From a virus: DNA of 20,444 nt. The DNA lies in IMG/VR virus record IMGVR_UViG_3300045988_163304, positions 128,001-148,444 of that record, one strand, 5' to 3'. The position numbers and the translations under genes were made by a program. Below the pieces are notes generated by a model. That model ran no database searches, was not told the origin of the DNA, and saw only the letters and a list, made by a program, of their open reading frames with translations. Below, in pieces: positions 1-18,079 of the stretch (positions within the stretch are counted from its first letter, which is position 1; the number at the start of each line of letters is the position of its first letter).

Positions 1-378
1 TATTTTAAAATATTATTTTCATTAATTGAAATAGCTTTAACATTACCTTCTGAATCTCGATAATAATATCGGTAATTAATAGTTTCATTTAATAAAAAAC
101 GCCTAAATTTAAATATTAATTCATAAGCATTTGCTAAAAGAATACGATTTGAAGCAGTATTTGTTTTTGATTTAAAACCAACTATTTTTTTTATATTTCC
201 TTCATGATATATAGCACGCATTTTTTGTTGACACATTAATATTGTTTTATCTACCTAAGTTTTAAATTCATCTAGGTCAATATTTAACATTTGCTATGAA
301 TCTTCCTGAAAGGCTTTACTAACCATATCATTTACTACATTAAACTCTTTCTCAGATAAGATTTTTACTTTAGCCATC
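1..378 (-). CDS. hypothetical protein, N-terminal part only (continues past window start); contains at least 2 in-frame TAG
   Basis: ATG at 376-378 on minus strand, preceded by GGAGGTA ribosome-binding site (revcomp of 391-397). Reads MAKVKILSEKEFNVVNDMVSKAFQEDS[TAG]QMLNIDLDEFKT[TAG]VDKTILMCQQKMRAIYHEGNIKK... with no TAA/TGA to position 1. Confidence 0.5.
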
Positions 379-396
379 TCATCTCTTCTTTACCTC

Positions 397-440
397 CTAA
401 AATAAAAAAAATGGGAAGAGGAATAAATCCTCTCCCCATA
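397..440 (-). terminator. rho-independent terminator after 456..1568
   Basis: GC hairpin GGGGAGAGGATTTATTCCTCTTCCC on the minus strand, followed by a U-run (plus-strand A8 at 397-404). It is GC-rich in otherwise AT-rich DNA. Confidence 0.6.
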
Positions 441-455
441 AAATTTTTAATTAAA

Positions 456-1568
456 TTACCAATTATAACTATCGTGAGATTTCTGGTGAACTGTGCTATG
501 ACGATGTAAATCCTCATTATCCAGATATTCAATTACTTGAATTGCAGCCAGAACCTTCTTACTATGATCGAAACGAGTATAATCAGGGAATGCATCTAAG
601 GTGAAAGTAAATGTACTTGGGTCACCAGAAGAAGCCATAGTAAAGGTGAAATTAGACTGAATCTTGCAGTTAGGAATAATGAACTCAGCAGGCATGTCTA
701 CACCGTTAGTATCACGGAATAGAGTAGAAGCCTCAAGATAATAGTTACCACCAAACTTATCAGCAGTAATTTCCATCTGAGTAGCACCAGACTTACGTTC
801 AGTGTAATAATCAACTAACACAGAATCGAACTTTAGACGATTTGGTAGAGTAACTACATCATAAGCGGTATTATCTCCACTAGCTGGAGTATATTTATGT
901 CCACCACTTTGCTCATCCTCATAAGAAGCTAAACCAACATACATATCATGGTCCATTACAGCCACACGATAATAAGTCTTGCCGTCTAAATCTTCTACAG
1001 TAGGAGCAAAATCAGTATCAATTCCAGAAGCCTTAGAATCTTGAATGGTAGCATTGCCTTTGTCATCATAAACCTCATGAACGGGAATGTAAGGTTCAGA
1101 GATAATTTCACCATTCTTCATAAACATAACATAAGCATAGTTGTCACCAGCATTAGCAGGCATATAAGGCTTATTCTCAGTATAAATAGCAAACTTAAAA
1201 CTATCCTCAAGAATCTTAAAACGTTTGCTATCACTTACATCAATAGTCTCAGTAATATGCTGATAAATTGGCTTATCTGCATTAGCAGAAATCAAACCAG
1301 CACCAGAAAGAATCATAAATCCTTCAGGAGAAATTAAAGCATCCTCCATAGTGAAGGTCAGAGTTCTTTCACCTTCCCATGCTACCAAACGAGAGTTACC
1401 ACGACCACCTTGTGCATATACAGTGGTAGCAGCACCTTCTAAGCTAGAAGTTTTCAGGGTGTCAAAATAAATAACAGGTTCACCAGCATAGAACACCTTA
1501 TTACCGATTTTCTGTGCTGACTTAGCCTTTAGTACAACATCACAAATTTCGCGGACACCGAATTTCAT
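456..1568 (-). CDS. abundant structural protein, 370 aa (possibly major tail/tube protein, guessed from position; product uncertain)
   Basis: Intact ORF in the track with no TAG. Strong ribosome-binding site GGAGGAAATAACACT before ATG. TAA stop, then a terminator. It is the last gene of the late block. Confidence 0.8.
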   Translation of the reverse strand: MKFGVREICDVVLKAKSAQKIGNKVFYAGEPVIYFDTLKTSSLEGAATTVYAQGGRGNSRLVAWEGERTLTFTMEDALISPEGFMILSGAGLISANADKPIYQHITETIDVSDSKRFKILEDSFKFAIYTENKPYMPANAGDNYAYVMFMKNGEIISEPYIPVHEVYDDKGNATIQDSKASGIDTDFAPTVEDLDGKTYYRVAVMDHDMYVGLASYEDEQSGGHKYTPASGDNTAYDVVTLPNRLKFDSVLVDYYTERKSGATQMEITADKFGGNYYLEASTLFRDTNGVDMPAEFIIPNCKIQSNFTFTMASSGDPSTFTFTLDAFPDYTRFDHSKKVLAAIQVIEYLDNEDLHRHSTVHQKSHDSYNW

Positions 1569-1595
1569 AGTGTTATTTCCTCCTTGTATTTTTAA

Positions 1596-2324
1596 TTAAT
1601 GAATGTTTTTCATCCAATTATCCGGGGTCCCTTCAGGTTTACCGCCAGCTAAACGCTAGCGCACATCCAGGTCCCAAGCAGTATATAGCGTATATCTCTC
1701 CATTAAATCATATAATTGGAACATTGTCAGATTTGTCAAATCCTATAATGACATTGAACCTAATCCAATAGTCAAGATTGACATATACTAACTAAAAACA
1801 CTTACATTCGAATTACCGTTTTGAGCGGCAACTCGCTGTCTCCCTCGCATTAGCTTTTGAGCAATCTCACGAGCCTTGTCGTTGGCAGGATTGAAAGCCT
1901 ACTAATCCATCGGGCCATTGTGCATACAAAAGATTAAACGCAACACTTCTTGTAATGCTTCAAAATTATTCCCATCTACAGTAATAGGAGGAACACCTTC
2001 CTTCATAAATAATAATGAATTCGGCGTCACATTTACTTTATATGATGGGAATAATAAATTTAAGACATTTAAAATGTTAGCTTTTTTATCCTTTGTTTCA
2101 TCCTATAACATTATCGTCATAAATATCTAAAAATTATTAATACTGTCTAGAATAGTTTTGTCCTCTATAAACATAGTTTTATGCAAACAGAGAGTCTATG
2201 CTCCAATAAAAAAATCAGATTCCCCAATAAATGAAATTTCTTTTATCCTTGGTTGATGAGCGACTAAATTACATTCAGGAATCAATATATCAGTTCCGCA
2301 AATTAAATTTAAGCGGTAATCCAT
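1596..2324 (-). CDS. hypothetical structural-module protein, 242 aa, with about 8 in-frame TAG
   Basis: Manual minus-strand translation from ATG 2322-2324 (overlaps the upstream TAA as TAATG) to TAA 1596-1598 is continuous if TAG is sense: MDYRLNLICGTDILIPECNLVAHQPRIKEISFIGESDFFIGA[Q]TLCLHKTMFIEDKTILDSINNF[Q]IFMTIML[Q]DETKDKKANILNVLNLLFPSYKVNVTPNSLLFMKEGVPPITVDGNNFEALQEVLRLIFCMHNGPMD[Q][Q]AFNPANDKAREIAQKLMRGRQRVAAQNGNSNVSVFS[Q]YMSILTIGLGSMSL[Q]DLTNLTMFQLYDLMERYTLYTAWDLDVR[Q]RLAGGKPEGTPDNWMKNIH. It includes the GC-rich stretch 1600-1900. Confidence 0.55.
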
Positions 2325-2926
2325 TATTTACTAATATAATCCTTGAATTCTTTAATAAATTGTTCCTCTTTAATTTTGCCGCTATTTTTATCAGGATAAG
2401 TTGGCATATATTTTTCATCTTCGCCACCATGAACAGTGCGATACATCAAACATAATCCAGCAAATTCATCATTTAAAACAATCTAAGTAGCACCCATAAA
2501 TTCTAAATAACCAATACCAGTTAATTTTTTCAAATTAAACATTGAATCAATTTCTCCGGCAATTTTATACGGGCGTAATGCATAATCTCTTAAATTCCAT
2601 TGGTCAAAATGACATATAATATCAAATTGAATAGTATTATCTCTAAACTCTGGATTTTCACTGGGAGTAAAATTATCGAAATTAATTAATACATAATTTA
2701 AAACAGAACCATCAACATATAATTTAGGCACTATTTTAATATTAGTTCCTAGCAAACTTAAAGACTAATCTTCAGTAAGATTAGGTTTTTCCATAGCATC
2801 ACTAGTAGTATAATATAATAATTTTTTTAAACGATTATTTTTTAATATTTCATTAACAATAATCCCAGTATCTTTTTCCATAGATAGAAAACTTGATTTT
2901 GGAATATGATATCCGTCTATTCTCAT
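2324..2926 (-). CDS. hypothetical protein, 200 aa, 2 in-frame TAG
   Basis: AAGGAG ribosome-binding site then ATG 2924-2926. Includes track ORF 2483..2755. TAG at 2765-2767 and 2483-2485 lie between clean protein sequence. TAA stop at 2324-2326. Confidence 0.6.
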
Positions 2927-2948
2927 GTTTTCAATCTCCTTTTACTCA

Positions 2949-4103
2949 TTAAAACAATGATTCTACTACTATAGTTTTTCGACTAGTTCCATAAACTAAA
3001 TCAAACTAACCGCTATAAGTAGAATCCCATTTAAGTTTAATTGTTGCAAATCCTTTATCATTAGTTCCTTCACTAATAATTCGGACAGGAACATCATTAC
3101 CTTCAATTTTCCAAGTTCCTCGAACATTTTTAATATTTAAATTAAAATCATATTCTTTTTTAGGCTTAATAAAGGTTTCACCAACTATATTTAAAATTTT
3201 ATTATTATCTTTGTTATCATCTATAATTTTACGTTTTAGTATTGGGTCTGGTATTTTAAATACATCAGCTAATCCTGCATCTCGGTCATCTGTAAACTCA
3301 TTAGCATAATATTCAACAGCATTTACTTCAATAACGCCAGTCATGCTAATATTATTTACAGCTTCAACTCTCCAGCAGGTATCATAAACTGAACCGTCTT
3401 CCGGCCAAATATAAAACTTCTAATAACGCTTAAAAAATTTCAAAGTTTTTTCATTTTTAGGAATTAATAAATTTAAAGAATAATTTGGATTGTCTACGCT
3501 AGTAGTATGTTTTTGAATATAATCAATTTTAGTTTCTACTGGACCTCGGTTAGCCACATAAACTACATTTAATTCATCATCCATCATAAATGGAATTTGA
3601 TAAGTACATCTACGAACATCTCCGCGAAAATAAGCTAATTCATCTAAATCCTATAAATAAATTAACCAATAAGTTCCAGTATTACACCATTCAAATACAT
3701 CTCCACAATTAAATTTATGTTCAAATCCAATTGAAATAACTTTATCATCATAATCCTATTTTAATTTATTAGGATTCATTAATGCTCGAACAGGAGGTAA
3801 AATATTTTTTTCTTTTTTAGTTTCTACCTCTGTAGCCGCACATTTACGCACCCAAGCCGCCTAATAAGAATATTTAGTAGCTTGGTCTAACGAATGTCGT
3901 TTATCTTTGATCATTCGCTACTGTTGGGCAAAACCACCCGCACTCATTAATCTTTTAGCCATATTTAAACTACCATCAACTGAATCTGGCTAAGGAATTT
4001 TTATACTTGTATCACCTAAACGAGCCCCTACAAGATTTACACTTTTATTAGTATTTAAACCATAAGGCAATAATTTTTCCATTTTTTCTGGACGTTTTGG
4101 CAT
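2949..4103 (-). CDS. hypothetical structural protein, 384 aa, 8 in-frame TAG
   Basis: AGGAGA ribosome-binding site then ATG 4101-4103. Continuous translation through TAG at 3990, 3918, 3861, 3756, 3651, 3420, 3006 and 2997. Includes track ORF 3006..3344. TAA at 2949-2951. Confidence 0.6.
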
Positions 4104-4363
4104 TACTTTCTAATCTCCTATAATAAACTAATACATTCAAATACAGTTTTTCTATAAATTGAGAATTCAATATCATTTAAAACATTTAATCCTTCTAATT
4201 TACTAAGCAACTATAAAAATCGCGGGTCCTAAATAAAAATTTCATTTAAGCCCGCAATTTCAATAATAACTGTATTTAATTGTTTATCCCAATCTTCTTC
4301 ATTTTCTCTCATAGGGATTAATTTCCACAGTTGATTAGTTAATCTTACTATATTTTTTTCCAT
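4103..4363 (-). CDS. small hypothetical protein, about 86 aa, 3 in-frame TAG
   Basis: ATG 4361-4363. Reads MEKNIVRLTNQLWKLIPMRENEEDWDKQLNTVIIEIAGLNEIFI[Q]DPRFL[Q]LLSKLEGLNVLNDIEFSIYRKTVFECISLL[Q]EIRK. Stop overlaps the next start as TAATG. Weak ribosome-binding site. Confidence 0.4.
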
Positions 4364-4391
4364 GACTTCATCGGAAATATCTGTATGATAT

Positions 4392-4979
4392 TTAGTTATC
4401 ATAAGGATAATTTTTATAATGAAATACGCCCCAATTGGATTCGTATTTCCCTTCTACTAATTTACGACGTTTATATAAACGTTGCATATGAAATGATTGT
4501 CTCTAACATTCACTCAGTAAAGACATCAATTTTTGTAAATGATTAGCCTATGAAGTCATTTTAAAATCTGAACCACTATACTTCATACGAGTGTGTTCAA
4601 TAGAAGTAACTTGGCGCTATACCCAATTTACCATCATCAATATAGCTAAAATATTAATTTCCTCCGGTGTTAATTCAGCTCCAAAAGATGAATGTTCTAC
4701 CATTACACGAGGAGGGCGGATTTCTGATTCTTCATCTGTTTCATCTTCCCACAAAAGACCAATTACAAAATCATCTTCTAATATTTCATCTTCATATTTA
4801 ATTTCCTAATCAATAGTATAATCATAAATATCAAATCTAGGAAATTCAAATTCAGGTAAAATATTTAAAAGTATCGCACGTAAATCTTTAATTGTATCTT
4901 CTGGAGTTAATTCAATATAAAGGTCATCAGTAATTTTCCCAAGGAAGCGATTATAAATATCAGTGAATTTAGTTCCCAT
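4392..4979 (-). CDS. hypothetical protein, 195 aa, 4 in-frame TAG
   Basis: GGAGGCG ribosome-binding site then ATG 4977-4979. Reads MGTKFTDIYNRFLGKITDDLYIELTPEDTIKDLRAILLNILPEFEFPRFDIYDYTID[Q]EIKYEDEILEDDFVIGLLWEDETDEESEIRPPRVMVEHSSFGAELTPEEINILAILMMVNWV[Q]RQVTSIEHTRMKYSGSDFKMTS[Q]ANHLQKLMSLLSEC[Q]RQSFHMQRLYKRRKLVEGKYESNWGVFHYKNYPYDN. TAA stop. Confidence 0.6.
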
Positions 4980-5000
4980 GATACGCCTCCTATTTATTTA

Positions 5001-5588
5001 TTATTCAGCAGATTTAGTTTCAGTTTGCTTTACTACTTTGTAAGCACTTCCAGATGTACGACGTCCTGCAGGAGTAGATTCTGTAACACGTCTTTCAGCT
5101 GGCTTATCTGCGATAGTTTCCTTTTTATCGTCTTCTTTACTAGCGCGGTCATTTTCAATAGCTTTATCTACATCAAAACCAGTTTTAGCTTTTAAAGCTT
5201 CACGCTTAGCCATATCAGTAATGGGTAATTGAACAGACATGGTTTTAATCAAATCAATAACTCCAATAGGAGCAAAATCAAGAGCATCTAAAAATGCATC
5301 AATAGAACCACTAAGAATTAAATCACGCACTTGCTCTTCTGACATATTATATTCAGGTTCACGATGAACATTTAAATCATCAGTAACTTCATTTTCCATA
5401 ATCTGTAAGAAATTAGCAATTAATTCACGTCCACCAGGTTGGTAAGTCAATTTTTCTAGTTCCCCAAATGGAATGCGCTTCACCTCACCGGGCGCCCATT
5501 CGCGTCTCAAATTACTCTCAGGAATTCTATATACAACAACACTAGTACTTCTATTTTTTACATTAAACATATCTTCAGAACGAATCAT
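5001..5588 (-). CDS. hypothetical head-associated protein, 195 aa (basic C-terminus)
   Basis: Intact track ORF with no TAG. Lies directly downstream of the capsid gene and its terminator. TAA stop. Confidence 0.75.
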   Translation of the reverse strand: MIRSEDMFNVKNRSTSVVVYRIPESNLRREWAPGEVKRIPFGELEKLTYQPGGRELIANFLQIMENEVTDDLNVHREPEYNMSEEQVRDLILSGSIDAFLDALDFAPIGVIDLIKTMSVQLPITDMAKREALKAKTGFDVDKAIENDRASKEDDKKETIADKPAERRVTESTPAGRRTSGSAYKVVKQTETKSAE

Positions 5589-5605
5589 TTTATTATCTCC
5601 TTTTT

Positions 5606-5650
5606 CTCTAAAAAAAATAAGGGGAGAGGGAGTAAATCCCTTCTCCCCTT
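5606..5650 (-). terminator. rho-independent terminator after major capsid gene
   Basis: Hairpin AAGGGGAGAAGGGATTTACTCCCTCTCCCCTT on the minus strand plus a U-run. Near-identical motif to the terminator at 397-440. Confidence 0.6.
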
Positions 5651-5676
5651 AAATGAAATCTATATTAAGGTTTAAA

Positions 5677-6783
5677 TCAAATTTGTCCACTTAGACGTCC
5701 ATCATAGGTAACAACCTTACCAGTTACACCATCATAGTTCCAAGTATACATCTGACCCATTAATGAAGTATCAACATAAGAGCAAATGTTGTTAGCCAAC
5801 ATACAACCAACGCCGACCTTCTTATAAACCTGAATCTCACGAGAACGATCATAATTGCTGAATTCATCAACAATAGTTCCACCCTCGAAAGCAATCTTTA
5901 CAGGCTTGCCATCAACACCAGTAGGAATAATCCAAGCGTAGCCAGGATCAATAACCTTACGGGTATTACTTTCATCCTCGAAGCCCTGCTCTAGAATAAC
6001 AACTTTGGTTCCCTTATAAGAAGCCAAACGACCAGTATTCCACAGCTCAGTCTTCATAGCTTCAGTATAACGCCAAGCTTCATTAGGAATCATACGAACA
6101 GCAAATTCATAAGTACAATAAATAGTAGGAGTACCATAAGCAGAAGCGATGGTAATCAAACGATCCATAGCACCCTCATCGAAACCTGCTGCAGCAACAC
6201 GGTTAGCAGGAGGTAGCTGATTAATAGAAGACTTCAAAGCCAAAGCAACTTCCTTGTAAATCAGTTCATCCATACCATCCATAATAATCTTGGTAACTTC
6301 AGCAAAATCAACACGACCATCTAAGAACTCTTCGAAGCCGATTTGAGCAGCTCCGCCGATAGCAGAGGTACGAACCTCAAAGCTCTCGTTTTCAGCAGGT
6401 CCCAGCTTGAAGACTTCATAGATACCAGCCAGTCCAACGCGAGTCACAAACTGCTTAGCACGTGCGCGTGTGTTTAGAGGACGACGGAAAATGGGCTTAT
6501 CACCCTGAGCAAACTGCTTAACTTCAGCAAACTGCTCATAAGATTGAGAAACCTTCTTAGGAAGAACTTCATCCAAAGTCTCCTCAATCATTGAGAAAAT
6601 TAAATTTTTATTTTCACGATATAGAGCATTAGTGCCAGCCAGCTCATTCATCTCATTACGTAAAGTATCGTTCAGAGCCTCATAAGAAAGGTTCTGACCA
6701 TTATAACTGTAAGCCACAGGAGAAGAAGGATCAGCCTTAGCAACAGTCTTCATTAAAGCAACTAAATTGTTTCTATCTAACAT
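5677..6783 (-). CDS. putative major capsid protein (HK97-like), 368 aa
   Basis: Intact ORF, no TAG, TGA stop, followed by a strong terminator. Sits after a scaffold-like gene. Size and composition fit a major capsid protein. The call rests on gene order and protein features only; no homology search was run. Confidence 0.7.
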   Translation of the reverse strand: MLDRNNLVALMKTVAKADPSSPVAYSYNGQNLSYEALNDTLRNEMNELAGTNALYRENKNLIFSMIEETLDEVLPKKVSQSYEQFAEVKQFAQGDKPIFRRPLNTRARAKQFVTRVGLAGIYEVFKLGPAENESFEVRTSAIGGAAQIGFEEFLDGRVDFAEVTKIIMDGMDELIYKEVALALKSSINQLPPANRVAAAGFDEGAMDRLITIASAYGTPTIYCTYEFAVRMIPNEAWRYTEAMKTELWNTGRLASYKGTKVVILEQGFEDESNTRKVIDPGYAWIIPTGVDGKPVKIAFEGGTIVDEFSNYDRSREIQVYKKVGVGCMLANNICSYVDTSLMGQMYTWNYDGVTGKVVTYDGRLSGQI

Positions 6784-6800
6784 TATTCTTCTCTCCTTTC

Positions 6801-7736
6801 TTACGCAATACGTAGAATCTTAGCGCCACGTTGTCCATCAGGCATAGTATATACCTTAACAACCTGCCACTTCATATCCTGACTCTCATCTTTTACAAGA
6901 ATTCCGTCAGCAGCTGCTGGAGCTAAAATATCACCAACAGAAACACTATCTTCATTAATCATATTAGTAGTATAATGATCACCAACATTAGTCTTGAAGA
7001 CACGAGGAACCATTGCAGTACCTGGAGTCATGCGCTTCTCATGATAAACACCAAGCTTCTTATATGGATCATTAGTCCAAGTCAGCTCTTCGTAAATGTC
7101 AGCGACATCAGTTAGAACCTTATCATAAGCATACTTTACAGGCACAGGAGTCTTAGTCTGATTGGTCTTAGGATCAATTTCATACTCTACACCATTATAA
7201 GTAAACTTATTGTCCTTAACATCATAAACTTCGCCAGCGATGGTAACAGTCTTTAGACCCTGGTCTAAAGCAACAGTGTGCTCAAGTACCTTGTGGTCAG
7301 CACCAGTTTCATCAACACCATTCCAGAAACGTCCACCATATTCAACCTCAGTATGCTCCCAATCATATGGAGAATAAATACGAGCCTGATAGTCGTCCTT
7401 TAGCATAGCAAATTCGCAATCCCACTGCTTAGTTCCATCAGGATGATCGCGATATAACTTAATCTCATTATAAACTAGCATCCACTCACCCTTGCCAGTA
7501 AAATTCACTTCACCAATACCATTGGCATTAGCAGCGTAATCATACTTGACAAACTGGCCGTTTTCAAGAATATTAATATCCTTGTTAGCAGGCAACTGAG
7601 CATAAATTTGAGCGGTTCTTTGTGCAGACAGGTGATTTGGCTCAACCTGACCATAACCAAACTCAACATACTTAGCCTGTGACTTAGGTGGATTCTTACC
7701 AACGCCTAAATGAGAATTTAAAAAATCCTTAAACAT
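6801..7736 (-). CDS. hypothetical head protein, 311 aa
   Basis: Intact track ORF between the scaffold-like and capsid-like genes. No TAG. Confidence 0.75.
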   Translation of the reverse strand: MFKDFLNSHLGVGKNPPKSQAKYVEFGYGQVEPNHLSAQRTAQIYAQLPANKDINILENGQFVKYDYAANANGIGEVNFTGKGEWMLVYNEIKLYRDHPDGTKQWDCEFAMLKDDYQARIYSPYDWEHTEVEYGGRFWNGVDETGADHKVLEHTVALDQGLKTVTIAGEVYDVKDNKFTYNGVEYEIDPKTNQTKTPVPVKYAYDKVLTDVADIYEELTWTNDPYKKLGVYHEKRMTPGTAMVPRVFKTNVGDHYTTNMINEDSVSVGDILAPAAADGILVKDESQDMKWQVVKVYTMPDGQRGAKILRIA

Positions 7737-7754
7737 TTAAGTATGTCCTCCTTA

Positions 7755-9341: not shown

Positions 9342-9613
9342 GATTTACCTCCTTAATTCATTGACTCTTTATTTTTTATGGTTTTTTCACTTTTCTAATC
9401 ATCAGCCTTTTCAGGTCGCCCAGACTATTTTGTTTCAGTAGTCTGTTTTGTAGTAGTCTATTGATTACTACTTCCTGAATTATTTTGTGTTTTATTCTAA
9501 TTGTTTGAACCTTTATTACCCAAAACATCTTGACTACTCATAGTAGAAGACATTAATGGCGGGATCATAATTTCAGTTAATTTCAACACATCATTTTCAA
9601 ATACCGCAGTATT
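9342..9613 (-). promoter_or_regulatory. intergenic region upstream of the head-morphogenesis operon, with GTAGTC/GACTAC inverted-repeat hairpins
   Basis: CAGACTA-N11-TAGTCTG at 9421-9445, GTAGTAGTC-TATT-GATTACTAC at 9451-9473, and TGACTACTCATAGTAG at 9531-9546. No ORF. Largest non-coding gap in the late block. Confidence 0.45.
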
Positions 9614-11014
9614 TAAAATAAAACTCTAAGAATGACCAAGAGCAATTTGAGGTAGCATCTTAGAATAACCAAGTTGCGTTTGTTCTTTATACAATTTTGA
9701 CATTTCTTTATAATTATATTGTGTAGTTTCAAGCATATAAAATTTAAAACTATATTTCTTATTGTTCGCAACTTTCATCTTTACTATTCTATCAAAAAAA
9801 ATGTTAAATTGCAACAACAAGTTTCTAACAGTTGATTCATCATTGAGGATAGACTTCTCTAATGATAAATTACCATCAGTATTGAATAAATTTTGAGAAA
9901 TACCTAAATTATTATAGACAGTACGTTCAACTTTTGCTAAATCATCTGTAGTAGTTGTAGTATTTTTATCTGATAAATCAATAGATTGAACATCAGTAAA
10001 TGTTGTTAAAACATCAACACCAATAGCTCTTGATAACATAGCAACAGCATTATTATGTATATCACGAGATTCATCAATATCAAATATTAAATCACCATTT
10101 TTATCCATAGGAAGTTTTTGAACAATAATTTTTAACAACTTCTACATTTGTTTTCTGCGATCTAAATCTTGAGCAGCGTCTAAATCCATGAGAGCAGGGA
10201 TAGAATTGATAAATGGTGGTGTATCACTGCCATTAAAATTAAATTTCACACTTAATTCTGGAGATAGTAAATACCAACTTCCACTATAATCTCCCTTAAT
10301 ATCAGGAAGTAATTTTCCCTTCTTATATAAAACATATCCACGCTAAAATTCTTCAGGGAATAATTTTAATACGCGCATACGATAATTAGGATCTGGAAAC
10401 TAATCAAAAAATCGCATATCAAACTCAATTGCTGGCATACCAGCCACAAAGTATCTAGAACGGCAATAACTAGCAGGCAATTCTTGTAACATTAAACTAT
10501 TTGCAGATTGCACTATATATCCATAATAACAACCATTTTTCATAATACTTTGAGCAATATCACCGCAGATTTTTTTAATATAAGTATTATCTAAGTAATT
10601 TAATAACTTTGAGAAATCTTTTAAAACTTTTTCATCTTTTACCGTATCATCTAAAATCTCTGGAGCGACATACCAATCATATCTATACAAATAAGCAAAA
10701 TAATTACATACTCGCTCATAAATACCGCTAATATCATAAAATAAATTAGAAATTCTACGCATTTCAACAATATCACGATTTATCATAGCTCGTAATACAT
10801 CATTTTTAGTGACCATGCGACATGGACCACGACGATTAGGATATAAACGAGCAAATGACCCTAAATCTAATACAGCATCATCTAATGTTTGAACTCCAAC
10901 TTTTATTTTACGATATTCTGTTGGATCAGCAGTTCGATAATCACTTGTTCCATTGCTGATATTAAATCCTTTGGAGTGGATGATTTCCTAACGTGATAAT
11001 TCTTTAGTATCCAA
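9614..11014 (-). CDS. putative portal protein, about 466 aa, 4 in-frame TAG
   Basis: Track ORFs 10400..10816 and 9626..10138 are in the same frame and joined by clean sequence across TAG at 10400, 10343, 10142 and 9626. Probable TTG start 11012-11014 after AAGGAGGTG ribosome-binding site. TAA at 9614-9616. Located just downstream of the terminase, as is usual for portal genes. Portal identity is inferred from position and size. Confidence 0.5.
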
Positions 11015-11026
11015 AATTCCACCTCC

Positions 11027-11383
11027 TTAATATCCAGCTAATTGCATTATATAATCATATGTAATAAGATTCTCGTCTGTATAAGGAATCTCTATTAATT
11101 TAAAATCATGTAAAGCACAAAAACGTCGTTTCTGATTATCATTATACTGTTGTTGGTATAAACCTTTTTTACCACCAAATTTCGCACTAGGCTCATAATG
11201 CTATTTACCCTAATATTCAATAATAAAATCAATTCTACCATCATCATCAAAAACGACAAAATCAAAACGTAAAGGTCTACCACTTGGTGCTTTTAAATCT
11301 GGAAAAATATATTCCATTTTAAATGGTAATTCAGCTTGTCGCAAAATCTCTTCAATTTTAATTTCGCCTCTAGACGCTCTCAT
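11027..11383 (-). CDS. small PD-(D/E)XK (DUF559/Vsr-like) endonuclease-like protein, 118 aa, 2 in-frame TAG
   Basis: GGAGGTAATT then ATG 11381-11383. Reads MRASRGEIKIEEILRQAELPFKMEYIFPDLKAPSGRPLRFDFVVFDDDGRIDFIIEY[Q]GK[Q]HYEPSAKFGGKKGLYQQQYNDNQKRRFCALHDFKLIEIPYTDENLITYDYIMQLAGY. The D...IEx(Q)GxxH pattern resembles the EvDGxxH core of DUF559 nucleases. Confidence 0.5.
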
Positions 11384-11393
11384 AATTACCTCC

Positions 11394-13127
11394 TCAATTT
11401 AAGAAACACCAATCTTTAGCATTAAACTTTTTACGTTTCTTCTTTTTATCTTCTTCTAATTTTAAATAATATAGTCCATATTCAAAAGCAGAAAATTTAT
11501 CTTTTCGGATACTTTTATTTGCTTGCTTCAGGATAATGTTTACTCCTTCAGTCTCTTCACGCAAATTCATCATTTCTTCTTTTAATATGGAAGTTAATGT
11601 AAATGGTTTTAATTCTTCTGCCCTCTATTCTGGAGTCATAGTTTGACCTTTCTTTTTAGCAAGGAGTTTATTTTTTGCTACGCGCTCATCAATTAAAAAT
11701 TTCACTTTTCCAGAAGCAAGTTGTGATTTGGCAATCGCATGAGCTTCTGTATTAAGTGGCGCATTAGCTTTTATAATATACATAGCATCTAATACTGTAT
11801 TAGATGTTTTATATTTTTTATAAAATAAATCATCATCATTGACAACGCCAAAATCAGGGAAAATTTCATTGGTTTCAGGATCAATCTATGTCTTAACCAT
11901 ATAATCAATTAAACCAATTCCTAAACCATTACCATCAATTACAATTCTATCAGCATTATATTTATAATATAATTTTTTTAATTTAATAGTTTGGTCTTCA
12001 AAATGTTCATCAGATAATGTGTATATATTTACTAAACTTTTAATTGAACCACCTTGTGATTGTGGAGTCACTTTAAATACGCAAATGACTGAATCACATC
12101 CTTTACGACCGACATCAACAGCAAGTACATAAGATGCTAATTTTGAATTACGCCCAGATGCTTCATATTCAGGCTAATTTAATATTCTATTTCTATCAAA
12201 TATTTCAGCATTAAAAAATGCATCTTCTACTGTGCCAGACCATTTACTTTCATATTCTCGGTCAAATGAACTTTCATTGAACGTTCCGTCCATTTTTAAG
12301 TCTTTAATAAAATTCGCATCTAATAATTTCATTAAAACAGGAATACGATAAGTACCACCCATAATGATAGATTGCTAAGGTTTAACAATCTCCCAAACTA
12401 ATAATTGAATTAATTTATCATAAGGGAAAGTATTTTTATATCCAGCAGTAGTAATATAAATTTGAGATTTATTAAGAGTTTCATCGGGTTGAGTAGTACC
12501 ATCCATACACATACGAGAAATATTCATTGTAGGAATAATAACTTGTGATAAAATATCACCATCAACACCAACGCACTCTTCAATTAAACCGCCGTGGCGG
12601 CGTTTACCACGAGAAGACTCTCTTGCAGCAATATTATCGAAATATGAACCATTTTTAAATACATATTTAACATAATCTTTACCTTCAAGTGTCTAACCAC
12701 GACGCCAATCTATTTCTTTCTAAAATGCAGGAATAAGAGTACAAATTTCTTGAACTTTTTCTTTTACAATTCCAGCCGCTTGTTCTTTACCACCAGAAGT
12801 AATAAATAATTTGCATCTAGGATATAGAATAGCACGACACATTAAGACCATCATTGATAAAAAAGATTTTGAATAAGCACGAGGGAATACAGCATAAATA
12901 TATTTATGACGCATCGCAGCGCGCAAAAAGATTCTCTAATAAAAATAGAGTTTAAAATGTTGAGGGCCGCCATCAGGCCCAGCCATAAAGTCGATAAACA
13001 TATCTGGATATTCTCTCCAAAAGGCTATGTACTATCTTGCTTCTGGTATAATCGCACGAAGACGGTCCTCTGAAATTCCAATCTTTTTACGCTTCTAAGA
13101 TAAATCAAGTAAATCCTATAAAGCCAT
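11394..13127 (-). CDS. terL: terminase large subunit, about 577 aa, at least 6 in-frame TAG
   Basis: ATG 13125-13127 sits one nt after the upstream TAA. N-terminus reads MAL[Q]DLLDLS[Q]KRKKIGISEDRLRAIIPEAR[Q]YIAFWREYPDMFIDFMAGPDGGPQHFKLYFY[Q]RIFLRAAMRHKYIYAVFPRAYSKSF (terminase N-terminal motif plus deviant Walker A). Includes track ORFs 12720..12926, 12174..12362 and 11886..12071. The last carries VIDGNGLGIGLID, a nuclease-domain Asp motif, followed by ...GVVNDDDLFYKKY...LDAMYII. TGA stop at 11394-11396. Confidence 0.7.
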
Positions 13128-13128
13128 A

Positions 13129-14325
13129 TTATCCTTCTAAATTCCTTAAAGTCTAAGCATCTATTTCAGACTCTTCCTCAAGGAAATCATTATATTCAAT
13201 TAAATCTTCATCTTTAAGATGATCGATTTCTTCCATCGTTAAATCTTCTTCAATATCTTGATCTTCTTCTTTATTTTCCTCTTCTTGCATTTTCTTAATA
13301 GCCCCTTCAATGAGATTACCTAGATTCATCTCTTCAGTGACTAATGTGTGTGTATAATTCTTTAAATCTTGTAAAGTTTCATCAACTTTATCTTTTGGAC
13401 CTTCTGTATAATACCGAGGAATAAATCCTTCAGTCTCACACATGGCCACTAATTCTCCAATAGAATCAAATGCTTCTCCTGTGTCTGCTTTATTTTGAGC
13501 GGCGGTGAAATTACCTGATTTCATTAGACTATCATAAACCTTGCTCATCTTTTGAAAACCTTCGATATCACCAATATCGATCAACTAGTTTGCTTTTAAG
13601 GATGTCTTACAAATTAATTTTAATGTATCAATATGACCAGCGCCGCGAATATCATAAGAACTCATCATTTCTTCATAAAGTTGCTCTAGTTTAACCCATT
13701 CTTCGGGTTTATACGCTTTACCCCACTTCATACGAAGATATAAAATATCTTCTTCTGTTAAATCGAGGTCATCTGCTGGGTCATGTTCAATACCATTCTA
13801 TTGATCAAAATAATTATCACCATCTCTAAAACGTTCTGGCAATTCAGGAGTATAAGGTTTTAATTCTTCTTCTGGAATAGCGACAGTAGATTTAGCAATA
13901 GCCGTTGCTATTTGCTAAGCATCATATCCTTGACGTTTCATAGTTTGCTCTAATTTATTATTAGCCACTTCCTATAAAAACTCAGAATCTTTCCATCGAT
14001 AATCTTTATATTGTTTAAGTTTCATTTTGGACAAATATCTACCTAAAATACTCATACCAGTTAATTTAGATTTATCTTGTCCATATTTCATTAGTAATTT
14101 ACTCCACTCCTCTGGAACATAAGGTATATCAATTTCTTGTAAAATCCACATATAAGTTTCTGGATTCCAGTTATCTACAAGCATTGTAATACATTTTTTA
14201 CATTGAGGGAGTTTTCCATCATTTGGATATTTTTCTAAATTATTAGATGTATAAAACTGGTCAGCACCCATAGTTCTATTACATCGTTCACAATAATATA
14301 CTTTATTACTATTATCTACAGTCAT
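13129..14325 (-). CDS. zinc-ribbon plus acidic C-terminus protein, about 398 aa, 4 in-frame TAG (possible terminase small subunit, from position)
   Basis: AAGGAGGA ribosome-binding site then ATG 14325. Track ORFs 13972..14325 (CxxC...CxxC) and 13153..13584 (acidic tail) are in the same frame. The intervening 13585-13971 translates cleanly with TAG at 13972, 13915, 13798 and 13585, plus TAG 13153. TAA at 13129-13131 immediately precedes the terL ATG. Confidence 0.5.
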
Positions 14326-14367
14326 AATTTTCCTCCTTATATTTATCCAATAACAGGCCTCTCAAAA

Positions 14368-15432
14368 TTATAACTGTTTGCCCTTGTTTTTGGCATTACG
14401 GCATTTTTTACAAATACTATAATAGCCATCTTTACTGGTTTTATTTTTACTAAAATATTTATTATGTGCTAATTTAATTTGCCCACAGCGACTACATTTT
14501 TTATATTTACCTTTTGCTTTATGTAAATAATAATCATATAGGTATTGGTCTTCAGCCGCAGAGGCGATTAATTTTGGAATTTTATTGCGCCATAAACTAG
14601 AAATATATTCTAAGCTATGAGTAATATTAAATTCCTCTTGAATTTTCTTTTGAATGTCTATATTCTATAATCCATCAATTTTATATTCAACTATTCTATC
14701 ATATAAAGGATAATCTTTAAGAGCAATAGTACATAAATTATCAAAATCTTCCATAATATACCATAAATCTCTTTCAAAATCTCCCCAACTATCTTGTTTT
14801 AAACGAGAATAATTACATAAAATTGCAGAACATACTCTAGGATCTAATAGTGAAACGCCATCCGGGATTGGATAACCATCATCATCAAAAATGCAAGTCG
14901 TGTCCTCTAATGGAATAAAATTTCTTGAACGAGTAATTTTAGTCATAATAATTGGACGACGAACTGCATTTTTAATAACATACTAATCTTTACGCATTTC
15001 AATAATAGCACGTTTAATTATAAATGCTTCGCGCCCTTCACTAACTCGTAATTTGGCTTCCCAAGTAGTAATGGCGTCTCTTAACTATTTTAAATGAGGT
15101 ATTTCTTCTATATCTTTTTTAGTAATTGTAATTTTGGGCTAAAATATTGTATTTTTATTTTCAGTAATTAAATTATAAATTCCATCTTCGCCATTCTCAA
15201 ATTGGGAAACAAGACCTTCAAAAGATGTTTCACGTTTATTAACTGTTGCCATACGATTATCAGTTAATAATTTACGCTCCTTTTTCTCTTGTTTCTCCAT
15301 ACAAAGAATGATATAGTCCCCTAATATTTCTAAATATCGAGGAGAGGGGTCTGGGGTTTCCTCTAATATTTTCTTGACTAATTCATTTCTTTCTTCTGGA
15401 GTTTGTAAGGAATAATCTAATTTTATCATCAT
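14368..15432 (-). CDS. hypothetical protein, about 354 aa, 4 in-frame TAG, C-terminal CxxC-N-CxxC zinc ribbon
   Basis: GGAGGTA ribosome-binding site then ATG 15432. Track ORFs 15139..15432 and 14665..14946 are in the same frame and joined through TAG at 15139, 15085 and 14983. Extended through TAG 14665 to TAA 14368-14370 (...CSRCGQIKLAHNKYFSKNKTSKDGYYSICKKCRNAKNKGKQL). First gene after the leftward promoter. Confidence 0.5.
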
Positions 15433-15457
15433 TACCTCCAGATTTTTTTACGTCTTC

Positions 15458-15486
15458 ATTATACAAAAAATTTTTCCAGGTGTCAA
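15458..15486 (-). promoter_or_regulatory. sigma-70/sigma-A consensus promoter (leftward)
   Basis: Minus strand reads TTGACA (revcomp of 15481-15486), a 17-bp spacer, then TATAAT (revcomp of 15458-15463). GGAGGTA ribosome-binding site and ATG lie about 25 nt downstream. Confidence 0.6.
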
Positions 15487-15541
15487 ATTTTAATAAATGC
15501 ATTTAAAAAATTTTTAAACGATACTATTAATTGGAAAAAAT

Positions 15542-15570
15542 TTGACAATAAAAAAAATTTTTTGTATTAT
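15542..15570 (+). promoter_or_regulatory. sigma-70/sigma-A-like promoter (rightward) for the small-gene cluster
   Basis: TTGACA 15542-15547, 17-bp spacer, TATTAT 15565-15570. AAAGGAGAAG ribosome-binding site then ATG 15601. Arranged back-to-back with the leftward promoter and shares an A/T-tract spacer motif with it. Confidence 0.5.
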
Positions 15571-15600
15571 TATTATAATAAAAAATAAAAGGAGAAGTTT

Positions 15601-15999
15601 ATGGTAATTGCTATTATTATATTAAGTATATTATTAATATTATCTATTATATATAATGTATTGTTTACAAAAGGAGTCACTAAACTTCTTGACCCTGAAA
15701 ACATTGAACAAAAATATAATTTAATAGCAGATTATTATGCAGATGCAAATAATATTGAAGAAAGCTTTCCTTGTTGTTTATTATTATATCTTCAATTTAA
15801 TGCGAAAGAATCTGCAAAAATTGCAGACTTCTCTAATTATGAAAATTCTAATATAATCGCCTATTCAGTTTTGTCCAAGGGTCCGCCACCACCTGGATAC
15901 GCCAATCAACTGGAAGAAGACGGCTCTATAAGAATATTAGTCCGCAATGTTCGAGTAAATAAATATAAGGATGGTGAATATTTTTGGGAGCCTATGTAA
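15601..15999 (+). CDS. membrane-anchored protein, 132 aa (N-terminal TM helix)
   Basis: Track ORF with good ribosome-binding site. Hydrophobic N-terminus MVIAIIILSILLILSIIY. Confidence 0.65.
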   Translation: MVIAIIILSILLILSIIYNVLFTKGVTKLLDPENIEQKYNLIADYYADANNIEESFPCCLLLYLQFNAKESAKIADFSNYENSNIIAYSVLSKGPPPPGYANQLEEDGSIRILVRNVRVNKYKDGEYFWEPM

Positions 16000-16190
16000 T
16001 TGTTATCTTTTGGATAATCATTTCAGCATTAGTAATGTTTGAATATATTGATGCAATTCAAAGCGCCGGTGAAAATAAATTAATTGTTTGTTTAATATTT
16101 TTTATTGGTGGCCCAATATTTGCTGCGAGTGATTTATTACAAAAAATTTTAGATATATTTTTACCGGAAGGGTGGAATGGTGATGACTGA
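15984..16190 (+). CDS. small 2-TM membrane protein, about 68 aa
   Basis: Track ORF with TTG start overlapping the upstream gene. Two hydrophobic segments. Confidence 0.45.
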   Translation: MGAYVIVIFWIIISALVMFEYIDAIQSAGENKLIVCLIFFIGGPIFAASDLLQKILDIFLPEGWNGDD

Positions 16191-16209
16191 AAAATAGATT
16201 AAATATATT

Positions 16210-16500
16210 TTGAAAAATTTTAAACGAGGCACTACTATTCTATTTATGGGTGTATCATTTAATCAATATATTAATCTTGAACAATTAACTGAAGCAGGAT
16301 ATACTTGTATCCTATTAGGTGAAGGTCAAGATTATTGGCCCTATATTAAAAATGATATGATTATTTATATAGATGGTATTGGTAATAAAATAAATTGTTA
16401 TCCATTGCATTGTCCTATTTTTGTATACGATAAAAATCGAGTAATAAATACTAAAAATAGAGATGTGCGCGTTTGGGTAGAAGTGTTAAAAGAGGAGTAA
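16210..16500 (+). CDS. hypothetical protein, about 96 aa
   Basis: Track ORF. The start could be ATG 16246 instead of the alternative start used by the track. Confidence 0.5.
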   Translation: MKNFKRGTTILFMGVSFNQYINLEQLTEAGYTCILLGEGQDYWPYIKNDMIIYIDGIGNKINCYPLHCPIFVYDKNRVINTKNRDVRVWVEVLKEE

Positions 16501-16501
16501 T

Positions 16502-16795
16502 ATGAAAATTTATAAATATTTAATTGAAACTCCAGGGTCTACTCATATTATGGATCATTTGACAGATATTGTATCTACTGGATTAGATGTAAATAATAAT
16601 CCATGCGTATGGGCAGTTTATGATGAAAAAGCACCCAAAAAATATTTTCAAATTAATGCTGTTGGCACAGGTTGGGAATTGGATAAATATGTAAATAATA
16701 ATGACAAATATTTAGGAGTTATTAATGATGGCGAGTATATTTGGCATATTATTAAGTCTTCTGGAGAAAAATGTCATATAATGGAGGAGAAATGA
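16502..16795 (+). CDS. hypothetical protein, 97 aa
   Basis: Track ORF. ATG overlaps the upstream stop (TAATATG). TGA stop. Confidence 0.6.
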   Translation: MKIYKYLIETPGSTHIMDHLTDIVSTGLDVNNNPCVWAVYDEKAPKKYFQINAVGTGWELDKYVNNNDKYLGVINDGEYIWHIIKSSGEKCHIMEEK

Positions 16796-16799
16796 TTTT

Positions 16800-17117
16800 A
16801 TGGAAGAAGGAAAAAATTATTTTGATATTGTAATGCGAGAAGGCCAAGCAATAGTTCATAATGAAGGTTCTATTCATTAGGTTGATAGCTTAGGCCGTCT
16901 TGTTTTTCCTAAGAATTTAAGACAAAAATATGGTATTGCTCCTGGCGACCGTATGGAATTTTATACTATTGAATATAATGGTGAAGTTTATGTTGGAGTG
17001 CGAGTGAGTAAACGATATGGTAGTAGAATAGAGTATTTACGCGCTAAAGAAGTATTAGATGATTTAGGAATTGAAATTCCTCAAAAACTAACTGATGCTA
17101 TTAATGGAGTAATGTAA
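16800..17117 (+). CDS. AbrB/SpoVT (swapped-hairpin) family DNA-binding protein, 105 aa, 1 in-frame TAG
   Basis: ATG 16800, TAG at 16878-16880, then VDSLGRLVFPKNLRQKYGIAPGDRMEFYTIEYNGEVYVGVRV. This is a textbook AbrB/MazE-type motif lying directly after the TAG. TAA at 17115-17117. Shows TAG is read as sense on the plus strand too. Confidence 0.65.
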
Positions 17118-17118
17118 T

Positions 17119-17262
17119 ATGCCTAAATATAAAAGTTTTGGAAATGCGCTTGCTGCTAAAATGCAGAAAAAGGCTAATTATTATGCTACTAAAGCAGTTC
17201 ATCAAATTGTATGGGGTGAAAACCCTAAACGGGGTCGTCCTAAGAAGGAGAATAAGAAATGA
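17119..17262 (+). CDS. small basic protein with AT-hook-like motif, 47 aa
   Basis: ATG overlaps the upstream stop. Reads MPKYKSFGNALAAKMQKKANYYATKAVHQIVWGENPKRGRPKKENKK. It contains the RGRP AT-hook core. Confidence 0.45.
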   Translation: MPKYKSFGNALAAKMQKKANYYATKAVHQIVWGENPKRGRPKKENKK

Positions 17263-17342
17263 TTCTTGAAGCATTAGCATTAATAGGATTAATTTTATTT
17301 TTTCCTATTTGGCTTTTTGGTAGGAATAAGATTAAGAAGTAA
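17259..17342 (+). CDS. possible 27-aa hydrophobic peptide
   Basis: ATG within ATGA overlap with the previous stop. Reads MILEALALIGLILFFPIWLFGRNKIKK. TAA stop. No independent ribosome-binding site. Confidence 0.3.
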   Translation: MILEALALIGLILFFPIWLFGRNKIKK

Positions 17343-17354
17343 TTAAAAAAATTC

Positions 17355-17408
17355 TACCGTTATTTGAATTGAAAAAAGTTTTACCGTTATTTGAATTGAA
17401 AAAAGTTT
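17355..17408. repeat. tandem direct repeat, 27 bp x 2 (TACCGTTATTTGAATTGAAAAAAGTTT)
   Basis: Two identical units at 17355-17381 and 17382-17408 immediately after the last AT-rich-part gene, at the composition junction. Confidence 0.8.
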
Positions 17409-17697: not shown

Positions 17698-17722
17698 AGT
17701 ATCATCAAAGGAGGAATGATCT

Positions 17723-18057: not shown

Positions 18058-18079
18058 AGTATAGTAGTATGGTATGGTA

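What the first reader, a model, noticed from the sequence alone, without database searches (positions are those of the whole stretch)
1..17342. Genome-wide reassignment of TAG from stop to sense codon (probably Gln, genetic code 15)
About 50 in-frame TAG codons lie inside genes that are otherwise continuous and recognisable (TerL N-terminal motif FWREYPDMFIDF and nuclease motif VIDGNGLGIGLID, the AbrB swapped-hairpin domain, the DUF559-like nuclease, the protease/scaffold linker, portal-like and TerS-like genes). Fragments listed separately in the ORF track are in the same frame, and the bridging sequence has no TAA or TGA. TAA and TGA are the only terminators, so this is not code 4 or 25. Recoding occurs on both strands, including the gene directly after the sigma-A-type promoter at 15.45 kb, so suppression must be available from the start of infection.
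Basis: partly seen in the sequence, partly recalled or inferred. Interest (0 to 1): 0.85.

Follow-up and report, generated by a model that had tools for sequence, protein, structure and literature searches.

The report
Gut phage reads TAG as glutamine
This stretch of an abundant ~199-kb gut phage uses the stop codon TAG as a glutamine codon in its late (virion-building) genes but almost never in its early genes, a real but already documented kind of phage code switch whose decoding agent I could not find.

Summary
With TAG as a stop, ORFs of 100 aa or more cover 43% of the window; with TAG as sense they cover 92%. I count 61 in-frame TAGs in credible genes up to 17262, and every gene ends in TAA or TGA.

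TAG behaves like glutamine. In 36 standard-code relatives, Gln is the majority residue at 35 of 62 TAG sites. True CAA/CAG sites give 83 of 132.

The reassignment is not genome-wide:
- **Late operon:** TAG supplies 36% of Gln codons.
- **Replication block:** 9%.
- **GC-rich early region (from 17.3 kb):** 7%. These genes carry consensus sigma-70-type promoters.
- **Four abundant virion genes:** no TAG at all.

This is the published late-gene recoding pattern (Borges et al.; phAss-1). NCBI taxonomy already has a "Caudoviricetes code 15 clade". The phage's TerL family holds code 11, code 15 and code 4 members.

No tRNA, release-factor or tRNA-synthetase gene appeared in about 80-85% of the genome, so the decoding agent is unidentified. 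Verdict: a new member of a known kind, of modest interest.

The parts
3..377 (-). 5' part of a late-operon gene that runs off the left end of the window; 2 in-frame TAG
   Evidence: 338-341 aa gene in same-species loci
456..1568 (-). tail tube protein (YomU_Tube), 370 aa, 0 TAG, stop TAA
1596..2324 (-). YomV-like virion protein, 242 aa, 8 in-frame TAG
   Evidence: Gln in standard-code relatives at 4 of the 8 sites
2324..2926 (-). YomW-like protein, 200 aa, 2 TAG
2949..4103 (-). 384-aa virion protein, 7 TAG. The longer ORF to 4136 adds 2 TAGs that lie upstream of the real start
4103..4402 (-). 99-aa protein, 3 TAG
4392..4979 (-). 195-aa protein, 4 TAG
5001..5588 (-). 195-aa head-region protein, 0 TAG
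5677..6783 (-). YonB-family protein (major capsid position), 368 aa, 0 TAG, 9 of 12 Gln codons are CAG, stop TGA
6801..7736 (-). 311-aa head-region protein, 0 TAG
7755..9341 (-). YonD-like protein with an acidic/lysine-rich linker, 528 aa, 3 TAG
9353..11014 (-). portal protein (phrog_2739), 9 TAG; Gln in nearly all relatives at codons 9, 291 and 463
11027..11383 (-). small homing-endonuclease-like nuclease between TerL and portal, 118 aa, 2 TAG (both Gln in all 36 relatives)
11394..13127 (-). large terminase (YonF-like), 577 aa, 10 TAG, stop TGA
13129..14325 (-). YonG-like protein (small-terminase position), 398 aa, 5 TAG
14368..15432 (-). first gene of the late operon, 354 aa. PHROG 5767 is labelled 'sigma factor' (unconfirmed). 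C-terminal zinc ribbon. 4 TAG, all Gln in relatives
15458..15486 (-). 12/12 sigma-70 consensus promoter in front of 14368-15432
15542..15570 (+). 11/12 sigma-70-like promoter for the divergent + strand module
15601..17262 (+). divergent AT-rich module of five small genes: 132 aa; 105 aa with 1 TAG; DUF7352; AbrB/MazE-type 16800-17117 with 1 TAG; 47 aa
17343..20444 (+). start of the GC-rich (44%) early region. It holds six small ORFs (17723-17818, 18735-18971, 18985-19173, 19275-19463, 19693-20001, 20100-20291), with five consensus promoter matches and five intrinsic-terminator matches among them, and no in-frame TAG

Best explanation
The window comes from a ~199-kb tailed phage of gut Bacillota with an SPbeta-like (Yon/Yom) virion module. 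In its late genes UAG is translated as an amino acid, almost certainly glutamine, while UAA and UGA terminate. The recoding is graded. Early genes have host-type promoters and GC 43-57%, and they are compatible with the standard code. Replication genes carry few TAGs. The structural operon and the endolysin carry many: 62 in the tape-measure gene alone. The four most abundant virion proteins avoid TAG entirely. The most likely logic (inferred, and the published model) is a mid-infection code switch. Early proteins are made under the host code, then efficient UAG suppression appears and permits full-length late proteins. The first late-operon gene is transcribed from a host-type promoter and carries 4 TAGs, so it could act as a translational gate. 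The decoding agent is not in the window. No canonical tRNA was found in about 80-85% of the genome. My estimates are: about 0.2 for a canonical phage suppressor tRNA in the unexamined 15-20%; about 0.4 for neutralisation of release factor 1, letting host tRNA-Gln or a non-canonical RNA read UAG; the remainder for a host- or helper-encoded suppressor.
For: Shown:
- Coding coverage rises from 43% to 92% with TAG as sense.
- There are 61 in-frame TAGs, and all terminators are TAA or TGA.
- Profile and homolog alignments cross the TAG sites.
- In 36 standard-code relatives Gln is the majority residue at 35 of 62 TAG sites, against 83 of 132 at genuine CAA/CAG sites, with the same E/K/T/D remainder.
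- In distant standard-code phages Gln is 21% of residues opposite TAG, against a 3.8% background.
- Within the species, most changes at TAG sites are swaps with CAA or CAG.
- TerL codon 64 is Gln in every relative.
- Gradient: late genes have 13.9 TAG per 1000 codons (88% of genes), the replication block 3.1, the early region 1.8; Fisher p about 1e-28.
- The four abundant genes have 0 TAG among 39 Gln codons, p about 3e-8.
- The endolysin has 4 TAGs and the tape-measure gene 62.
- The early region has consensus promoters and terminators.
- Public gene calls already give these proteins with Q at TAG.
- The pattern is the one described in bioRxiv 10.1101/2021.08.26.457843 and PMC10607447.
Against: No suppressor tRNA, and indeed no tRNA at all, was found. 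No release-factor or aaRS gene was found either.
- ARAGORN found nothing in the window or in about 160-169 kb tiled from same-species contigs.
- A custom CUA-anticodon-loop scan of nine of the tile loci found nothing.
- Rfam at gathering score found nothing.

Timing is inferred from promoters and composition, not from expression data. The tile mixes strains and leaves a gap of about 30-40 kb. Gln is inferred from alignments, with no peptide evidence. The GC difference between early and late regions by itself shifts Gln codon choice, so part of the gradient could be compositional.
Confidence: 0.85

Rival explanations
1. One reading: a uniform, genome-wide code 15, with suppression already active at the start of infection.
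For: A perfect sigma-70 consensus promoter sits directly in front of a gene with 4 TAGs. Two TAGs lie in the + strand module. Some replication genes have TAGs.
Against: 97 early-region genes hold only 22 TAGs (7% of Gln codons). Six of those lie within 9 codons of the end, and 13 lie in two AT-rich homing-endonuclease-like islands. The six promoter-proximal early ORFs in the window have none.
Confidence: 0.08
2. TAG encodes some other residue (pyrrolysine, Glu, Lys, Tyr or Trp) rather than Gln.
For: E and K are each the majority residue at 5 of the 62 TAG sites. ARAGORN labels CUA tRNAs as 'Pyl' in phAss-1.
Against: The substitution spectrum at TAG sites mirrors that of genuine Gln codons (56% versus 63% Gln majority). 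Within the species most changes at TAG sites are to CAA or CAG. No pyl genes appear in the gene tables.
Confidence: 0.04
3. TAG stays mainly a stop, with only leaky read-through that yields small amounts of full-length protein.
For: No decoding agent was found. The abundant virion proteins avoid TAG.
Against: There are 62 TAGs in the tape-measure gene, 45 in a 2369-aa tail protein, and 9-10 in portal and TerL. Even 90% read-through per codon would give 0.1% full-length tape measure (arithmetic). The phage is very abundant, so it is viable.
Confidence: 0.02
4. A decayed prophage or an assembly or sequencing artefact that produces fragmented pseudogenes.
For: Table-11 ORFs are fragmented.
Against: Only TAG interrupts the frames, never TAA or TGA. 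The TAG sites are conserved across many independent assemblies of about 197-200 kb.
Confidence: 0.01

Closest known systems
Late-gene stop-codon recoding in gut phages (Borges et al., bioRxiv 10.1101/2021.08.26.457843); large Firmicutes-associated clades Jade, Sapphire and Agate
   Same: Genome of about 200 kb. TAG recoded in structural and lysis genes, while early genes are standard-code compatible. The clade mixes code 11, 15 and 4. TAG stops are rare in standard-code relatives (13 of 139). A suppressor tRNA is often undetected (they found one in 40% of TAG-recoded genomes).
   Different: I could not test whether this phage belongs to one of their named clades, because no reference sequences were available. 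Two features here may add to their account: the strong early/late GC split, and TAG avoidance in the most abundant virion proteins.
phAss-1 / proposed Phassvirus, NCBI 'Caudoviricetes code 15 clade' (PMC10607447)
   Same: A human-gut siphovirus-like phage with a homologous TerL (44% identity), TAG read as Gln in TerL, portal and tape measure, and NrdD/NrdG present.
   Different: phAss-1 is 136 kb with 36 tRNAs, including Sup-CTA genes right next to nrdD. This phage is about 199 kb, has no megablast similarity to phAss-1, and has no tRNA next to its nrdD or in any other part examined.
crAss-like phages (Crassvirales) using code 15, validated by metaproteomics (PMC9523058)
   Same: [quoted passage not shown]
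   Different: An unrelated lineage (podovirus-like, Bacteroidota hosts). This phage has an SPbeta-like virion module and relatives that infect Bacillota.
SPbeta-like and related Bacillota phages (Enterococcus H1/EF1, Geobacillus E3, Bacillus FADO/Sophrita, Brevibacillus Sundance)
   Same: A syntenic YonG-YonF(TerL)-YonE(portal)-YonD-YonB...YomW-YomV-YomU module. TerL is 33-52% identical.
   Different: Those phages use the standard code and carry tRNA arrays upstream of the terminase. This phage is recoded and has none there.

Membership tests
Genetic code 15 (TAG = Gln) phage | In-frame TAG inside conserved, otherwise intact genes | tested here: met
   61 in-frame TAGs; coding coverage 43% to 92%; profiles span the TAG sites
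Genetic code 15 (TAG = Gln) phage | TAG aligns with Gln in standard-code homologs | tested here: met
   Gln is the majority residue at 35 of 62 sites, versus 83 of 132 for true Gln codons. Gln is 21% versus a 3.8% background in distant phages. TAG swaps with CAA/CAG within the species
Genetic code 15 (TAG = Gln) phage | TAA and TGA retained as terminators | tested here: met
   All window genes end in TAA or TGA, with none in frame internally
Genetic code 15 (TAG = Gln) phage | Phage-encoded suppressor tRNA with a CUA anticodon | tested here: inconclusive
   None in the window or in about 80-85% of the genome tiled from same-species contigs, by ARAGORN, a custom scan and Rfam. About 30-40 kb remains unexamined
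Genetic code 15 (TAG = Gln) phage | Peptide evidence for Gln at UAG | not testable with these tools
   Requires metaproteomics
Late-gene recoding / code-switch model (Borges et al.) | Early genes compatible with the host's standard code | tested here: met
   Early region: 1.8 TAG per 1000 codons, 13% of genes, consensus sigma-70 promoters
Late-gene recoding / code-switch model (Borges et al.) | Structural and lysis genes preferentially recoded | tested here: met
   Late operon: 13.9 per 1000 codons, 88% of genes. The endolysin has 4 TAGs
Late-gene recoding / code-switch model (Borges et al.) | Code-change machinery (suppressor tRNA, RF2, aaRS) encoded in the standard code | tested here: inconclusive
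   No such genes in the Pfam-annotated gene tables or RNA scans of the examined 80-85%
Phassvirus (phAss-1 genus) | High nucleotide identity and synteny with phAss-1 (80-86% among members) | tested here: not met
   No megablast hit to phAss-1; TerL only 44% identical; 199 kb versus 136 kb
SPbeta-like virion module | Yon/Yom protein families in conserved order | tested here: met
   Precomputed Pfam hits YonG_N, YonD_N, YonB, YomW, YomV_2nd and YomU_Tube, in order

The most novel reading that the evidence does not exclude
This very abundant ~199-kb phage achieves near-complete UAG-to-Gln decoding (62 TAGs in one gene) without any canonical tRNA of its own. It might do so by neutralising host release factor 1 so that host tRNA-Gln reads UAG near-cognately, or through a non-canonical suppressor RNA. 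If so, it would be a tractable example of the unexplained majority of recoded phages that lack a detectable suppressor tRNA.
Probability: 0.35. Interest if true: 0.75.

Novelty: new member of a known kind. Interest (0 to 1): 0.3.

Why it matters
In practice, table-11 annotation shatters this phage's virion genes. Two PHROG families of 'unknown function' are simply the two halves of such a terminase. Any pipeline that meets this very common gut phage must use table 15.

Biologically, the window spans the boundary between a standard-code early region and a TAG-recoded late operon. That makes it a clean illustration of the code-switch model.

No tRNA gene was found in about 80-85% of the genome. 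This sharpens an open question: how do recoded phages without a suppressor tRNA change the code? The window does not answer it.

Tried and rejected
- **Pfam on the joined proteins:** almost nothing; only the AbrB/MazE domain reached its gathering score, and the DUF2726 and ATPTG10 matches fell below theirs. PHROGs and precomputed Pfam hits were informative instead.
- **Megablast of the whole window against 50,697 phage records:** only a 376-nt, 72% match.
- **Rfam on the window:** nothing at gathering score. Permissive E-value search of 17000-20444 gave only two chance-level matches, SNORD43 and sroH.
- **ARAGORN with introns or lowered thresholds:** only noise inside coding regions.
- **An apparent 7-kb gene-free stretch downstream of the tape measure (L118):** an artefact of my ORF lister. 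It is one 2369-aa tail gene with 45 TAGs that ran off the locus.
- **TAA-as-sense and TGA-as-sense readings:** rejected. They open many overlapping frames, and no in-frame TGA or TAA occurs in the genes.
- **Following the phAss-1 arrangement (Sup-tRNAs beside nrdD):** this phage has NrdD and NrdG but no tRNA there.
- **'Sigma factor' label for 14368-15432:** no support from Pfam, NCBIfam or PDB sequences.
- **MAG bins as host evidence:** treated only as weak evidence for a Bacillota host.


Full report
**1. The observation**

Under the bacterial code the window looks broken. ORFs of 100 aa or more cover 43% of it. Treating TAG as sense raises this to 92%, while treating TGA as sense gives only 49%. 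The table-15 ORFs form a tight head-to-tail operon on the - strand (3..15432) and a short divergent module on the + strand (15601..17262).

Three ORF starts were too long when compared with gene calls and alignments in relatives: 2949-4136, 4103-4513 and 16105-16500. After correcting them, credible CDSs contain 61 in-frame TAGs, 59 on the - strand and 2 on the + strand. Every gene ends in TAA or TGA, and no TAA or TGA is in frame internally.

**2. What the sequence is**

The window is identical over 10,345 nt to ENA contig ERZ27260788:k119_216859, which is 199,479 bp.

The same TerL, already translated with Q at the TAG positions, is in the public protein collection on hundreds of contigs of up to about 197-200 kb from human and pig gut metagenomes.

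Precomputed Pfam hits on relatives' gene calls label the operon as an SPbeta-like Yon/Yom virion module. Its order is:
- YonG_N
- TerL
- a small homing-endonuclease-like gene
- portal
- YonD_N
- YonB
- YomW
- YomV
- YomU tube
- a tape measure of about 2640-2780 aa

PHROG profiles match the joined portal end to end (E 2e-81). They split TerL into two 'unknown function' families, which look like table-11 fragments of recoded terminases.

By tblastn the nearest cultured relatives are standard-code phages of Enterococcus, Geobacillus, Alicyclobacillus, Bacillus and Brevibacillus, with TerL 33-52% identical. phAss-1 is at 44%. GTDB MAG bins that carry relatives are mostly Bacillota, which is only weak evidence for the host.

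**3. TAG is sense and behaves as Gln**

- **Distant standard-code phages.** Alignments to six of them run through the TAG positions. Gln is the commonest residue opposite TAG, 26 of 125 non-gap cells (21%) against a 3.8% background.
- **Closer standard-code relatives.** In 36 of them (TerL 60-79% identical), Gln is the majority residue at 35 of 62 TAG sites. Genuine CAA/CAG sites give 83 of 132, with the same E/K/T/D remainder.
- **Sites conserved as Gln.** TerL codons 64 and 414, both endonuclease sites and YonG-like codon 247 are Gln in all 36 relatives. Portal codons 291 and 463 and codon 256 of the first operon gene are Gln in every relative aligned there (34-35).
- **TAGs near C-termini.** YonG-like codon 391 of 398, the 99-aa gene's codon 132 in the numbering (4 codons before its stop) and the 384-aa gene's codon 377 in that numbering (18 codons before its stop) also align with residues rather than with protein ends.
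- **Within the species.** TAG is conserved at 57-58 of 64 aligned sites. Where it changes, it usually swaps with CAA or CAG.

**4. The recoding is not genome-wide**

I tiled about 160-169 kb of this phage from same-species contigs and called genes on the transcribed strand.

| Region | Genes | Genes with TAG | TAG per 1000 codons | TAG share of Gln codons | Mean GC |
|---|---|---|---|---|---|
| Late structural operon | 40 | 88% | 13.9 | 36% | 0.31 |
| Replication / nucleotide metabolism / lysis | 64 | 36% | 3.1 | 9% | 0.35 |
| Early region | 97 | 13% | 1.8 | 7% | 0.43 |

The early-versus-late difference gives Fisher p about 2e-28.

The replication block holds gyrase, ligase, DnaB, RecJ, a PIF1-like helicase, Pol III alpha, NrdD/NrdG, dUTPase, PhoH and a CHAP-amidase endolysin.

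The early region begins at window 17.3 kb:
- Thirteen of its 22 TAGs lie in two AT-rich homing-endonuclease-like islands.
- Six lie within the last 9 codons, so they may be true stops. One example is the gene at L013 11808-12131, where TAG sits five codons before TAA.
- Inside the window, 17.3-20.4 kb has GC 44%. It holds six small ORFs, five promoter matches of 11-12 out of 12, all with a TG extension, intrinsic terminators after five of the ORFs, and no TAG.

Within the late operon four genes have 0 TAG among 39 Gln codons (p about 3e-8). They also prefer CAG. The genes are the tube, the YonB-family protein and two neighbours.

The most heavily recoded genes are:
- the tape measure, with 62-63 TAGs
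- two giant tail proteins, with 45 and 18 TAGs
- the endolysin, with 4 TAGs

**5. The promoter argument**

A 12/12 consensus promoter (15486-15458, - strand) and a GGAGG site do precede gene 14368-15432. Its four TAGs are Gln in relatives.

This does not force early suppression. It fits equally well with a gate in which the first late-operon product is completed only once suppression exists. That reading is inference.

The 'sigma factor' label for this gene comes only from PHROG 5767. Pfam, NCBIfam and PDB sequence searches give nothing.

**6. Family and literature context**

The 78 IMG/VR loci with TerL 63-98% identical include three kinds of lineage:
- TAG-recoded lineages
- standard-code lineages (TerL 74-79% identical)
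- four TGA-recoded loci

In the TGA-recoded loci, in-frame TGA aligns with Trp in 45 of 66 cases.

In standard-code relatives only 13 of 139 late-operon stops are TAG.

This matches Borges et al., who describe:
- large Firmicutes-associated clades that mix codes 11, 15 and 4
- recoding of structural and lysis genes
- early genes in the standard code
- suppressor tRNAs detected in only 40% of TAG-recoded genomes

Babkin et al. describe phAss-1 and related TAG-recoded gut phages. NCBI taxonomy lists a 'Caudoviricetes code 15 clade'. Code 15 has been validated by metaproteomics in crAss-like phages (PMC9523058, listed).

**7. The search for the decoder**

The window has no tRNA and no Rfam hit.

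I walked outwards through the early region, the whole tail module, the point where the two transcription directions converge, and the replication block. The loci used were L013, L101, L103, L228, L016, L118, L125, L129, L134, L137, L138, L219, L222-L226 and L231. L013 and L226 come from the window's own contig.

None of the methods found a tRNA:
- ARAGORN
- a custom scan for CUA anticodon loops with a T-loop, run on nine of the tile loci
- Rfam at gathering score over 288 kb of loci

No release-factor or aminoacyl-tRNA-synthetase domain appears in the gene tables.

phAss-1 keeps two Sup-CTA tRNAs beside nrdD. This phage has nrdD and nrdG but no tRNA there.

**8. Mechanism**

Shown: TAG is sense, it behaves like Gln, it is concentrated in late genes, and it is avoided in early genes and in the most abundant virion genes.

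Inferred: a temporal switch from standard-code to TAG-reading translation.

With 62 TAGs in one essential gene, read-through per codon must be close to complete. At 90% per codon, only about 0.1% of products would be full length. Competition from release factor 1 must therefore be essentially removed late in infection.

tRNA arrays are compact, and 80-85% of the genome is empty of them. On that basis I put a canonical phage suppressor tRNA in the gap at about 0.2.

The alternatives are RF1 neutralisation with near-cognate reading by host tRNA-Gln, a non-canonical suppressor RNA, or a host or helper suppressor. It is my own knowledge, not tested here, that RF1-deficient E. coli inserts Gln, Tyr and Lys at UAG.

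**9. Verdict**

The code-15 reading is supported. The 'genome-wide' claim and the 'from the start of infection' claim are not.

The phenomenon is well documented, and public gene callers already handle it for this phage. It is a new member of a known kind. The residual interest lies in the missing decoder and in the clean early/late code boundary that the window captures.

Noticed in passing
window 17841-19507: Eight sites of a 22-bp palindrome (consensus GATTGTTAAAANTTTAACAATG, up to 3 mismatches; 0 expected by chance). They cluster in and around a roughly 0.9-kb ORF-free, GC-rich stretch (17820-18735) at the head of the early region and look like repressor operators. The stretch also contains an odd G/T-rich run (gtagggtgtagggcaggggtagggtgtagg).
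   Followed up: partly
window 17343-20444 and L013 10193-20192: The phage has a two-part composition. Early genes have GC 42-57% and GC3 up to 0.70, whereas the late operon has GC about 0.30 and GC3 about 0.15-0.3. This suggests either different origins or strong selection on early-gene codon usage toward the host.
   Followed up: partly
window 456-1568, 5001-5588, 5677-6783, 6801-7736: The four presumably most abundant virion proteins have no TAG and use CAG for 25 of 39 Gln codons. Neighbouring genes use CAA and TAG and almost never CAG.
   Followed up: yes
window 11394-13127: PHROG families phrog_15503 and phrog_24618, both labelled 'unknown function', match the N- and C-terminal halves of this TerL. 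They were probably built from table-11 fragments of recoded phage terminases.
   Followed up: no
L062, L065, L072, L095 (IMG/VR relatives, TerL about 65% identical): Relatives in the same TerL family are TGA-recoded. In-frame TGA aligns with Trp of the window's proteins in 45 of 66 cases. Other relatives at 74-79% TerL identity use the standard code.
   Followed up: yes
L103 11818-12747 and L101 15963-16526: AT-rich islands (GC about 0.31) with 6-7 TAGs each sit inside the GC-rich early region. The first looks like an HNH/AP2-type homing endonuclease gene. Window 11027-11383 is another small nuclease gene wedged between TerL and portal.
   Followed up: no
L013 11808-12131: An early gene has TAG five codons before its TAA. 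It would end at TAG under the host code and gain a 4-residue tail once TAG is read through.
   Followed up: no
L226 1027-2285; L231 1-1581; L134 15573-16946: Unusual cargo elsewhere in the genome: an AAA_33 kinase plus metallophosphatase pair (a polynucleotide kinase/phosphatase-like pair that could point to RNA repair), a vault MVP-shoulder-like 828-aa protein, a Band_7/flotillin-like protein, and a radical-SAM-like gene (CxxxCxxC motif) inside the tail module.
   Followed up: no
L016 12934-20862; L125 3422-10531; L129 9677-17878; L137 6854-13477: The tail module is exceptionally long, about 55 kb after the tube gene. It has a tape measure of about 2640-2780 aa and three further proteins of 2200-2730 aa.
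   Followed up: no
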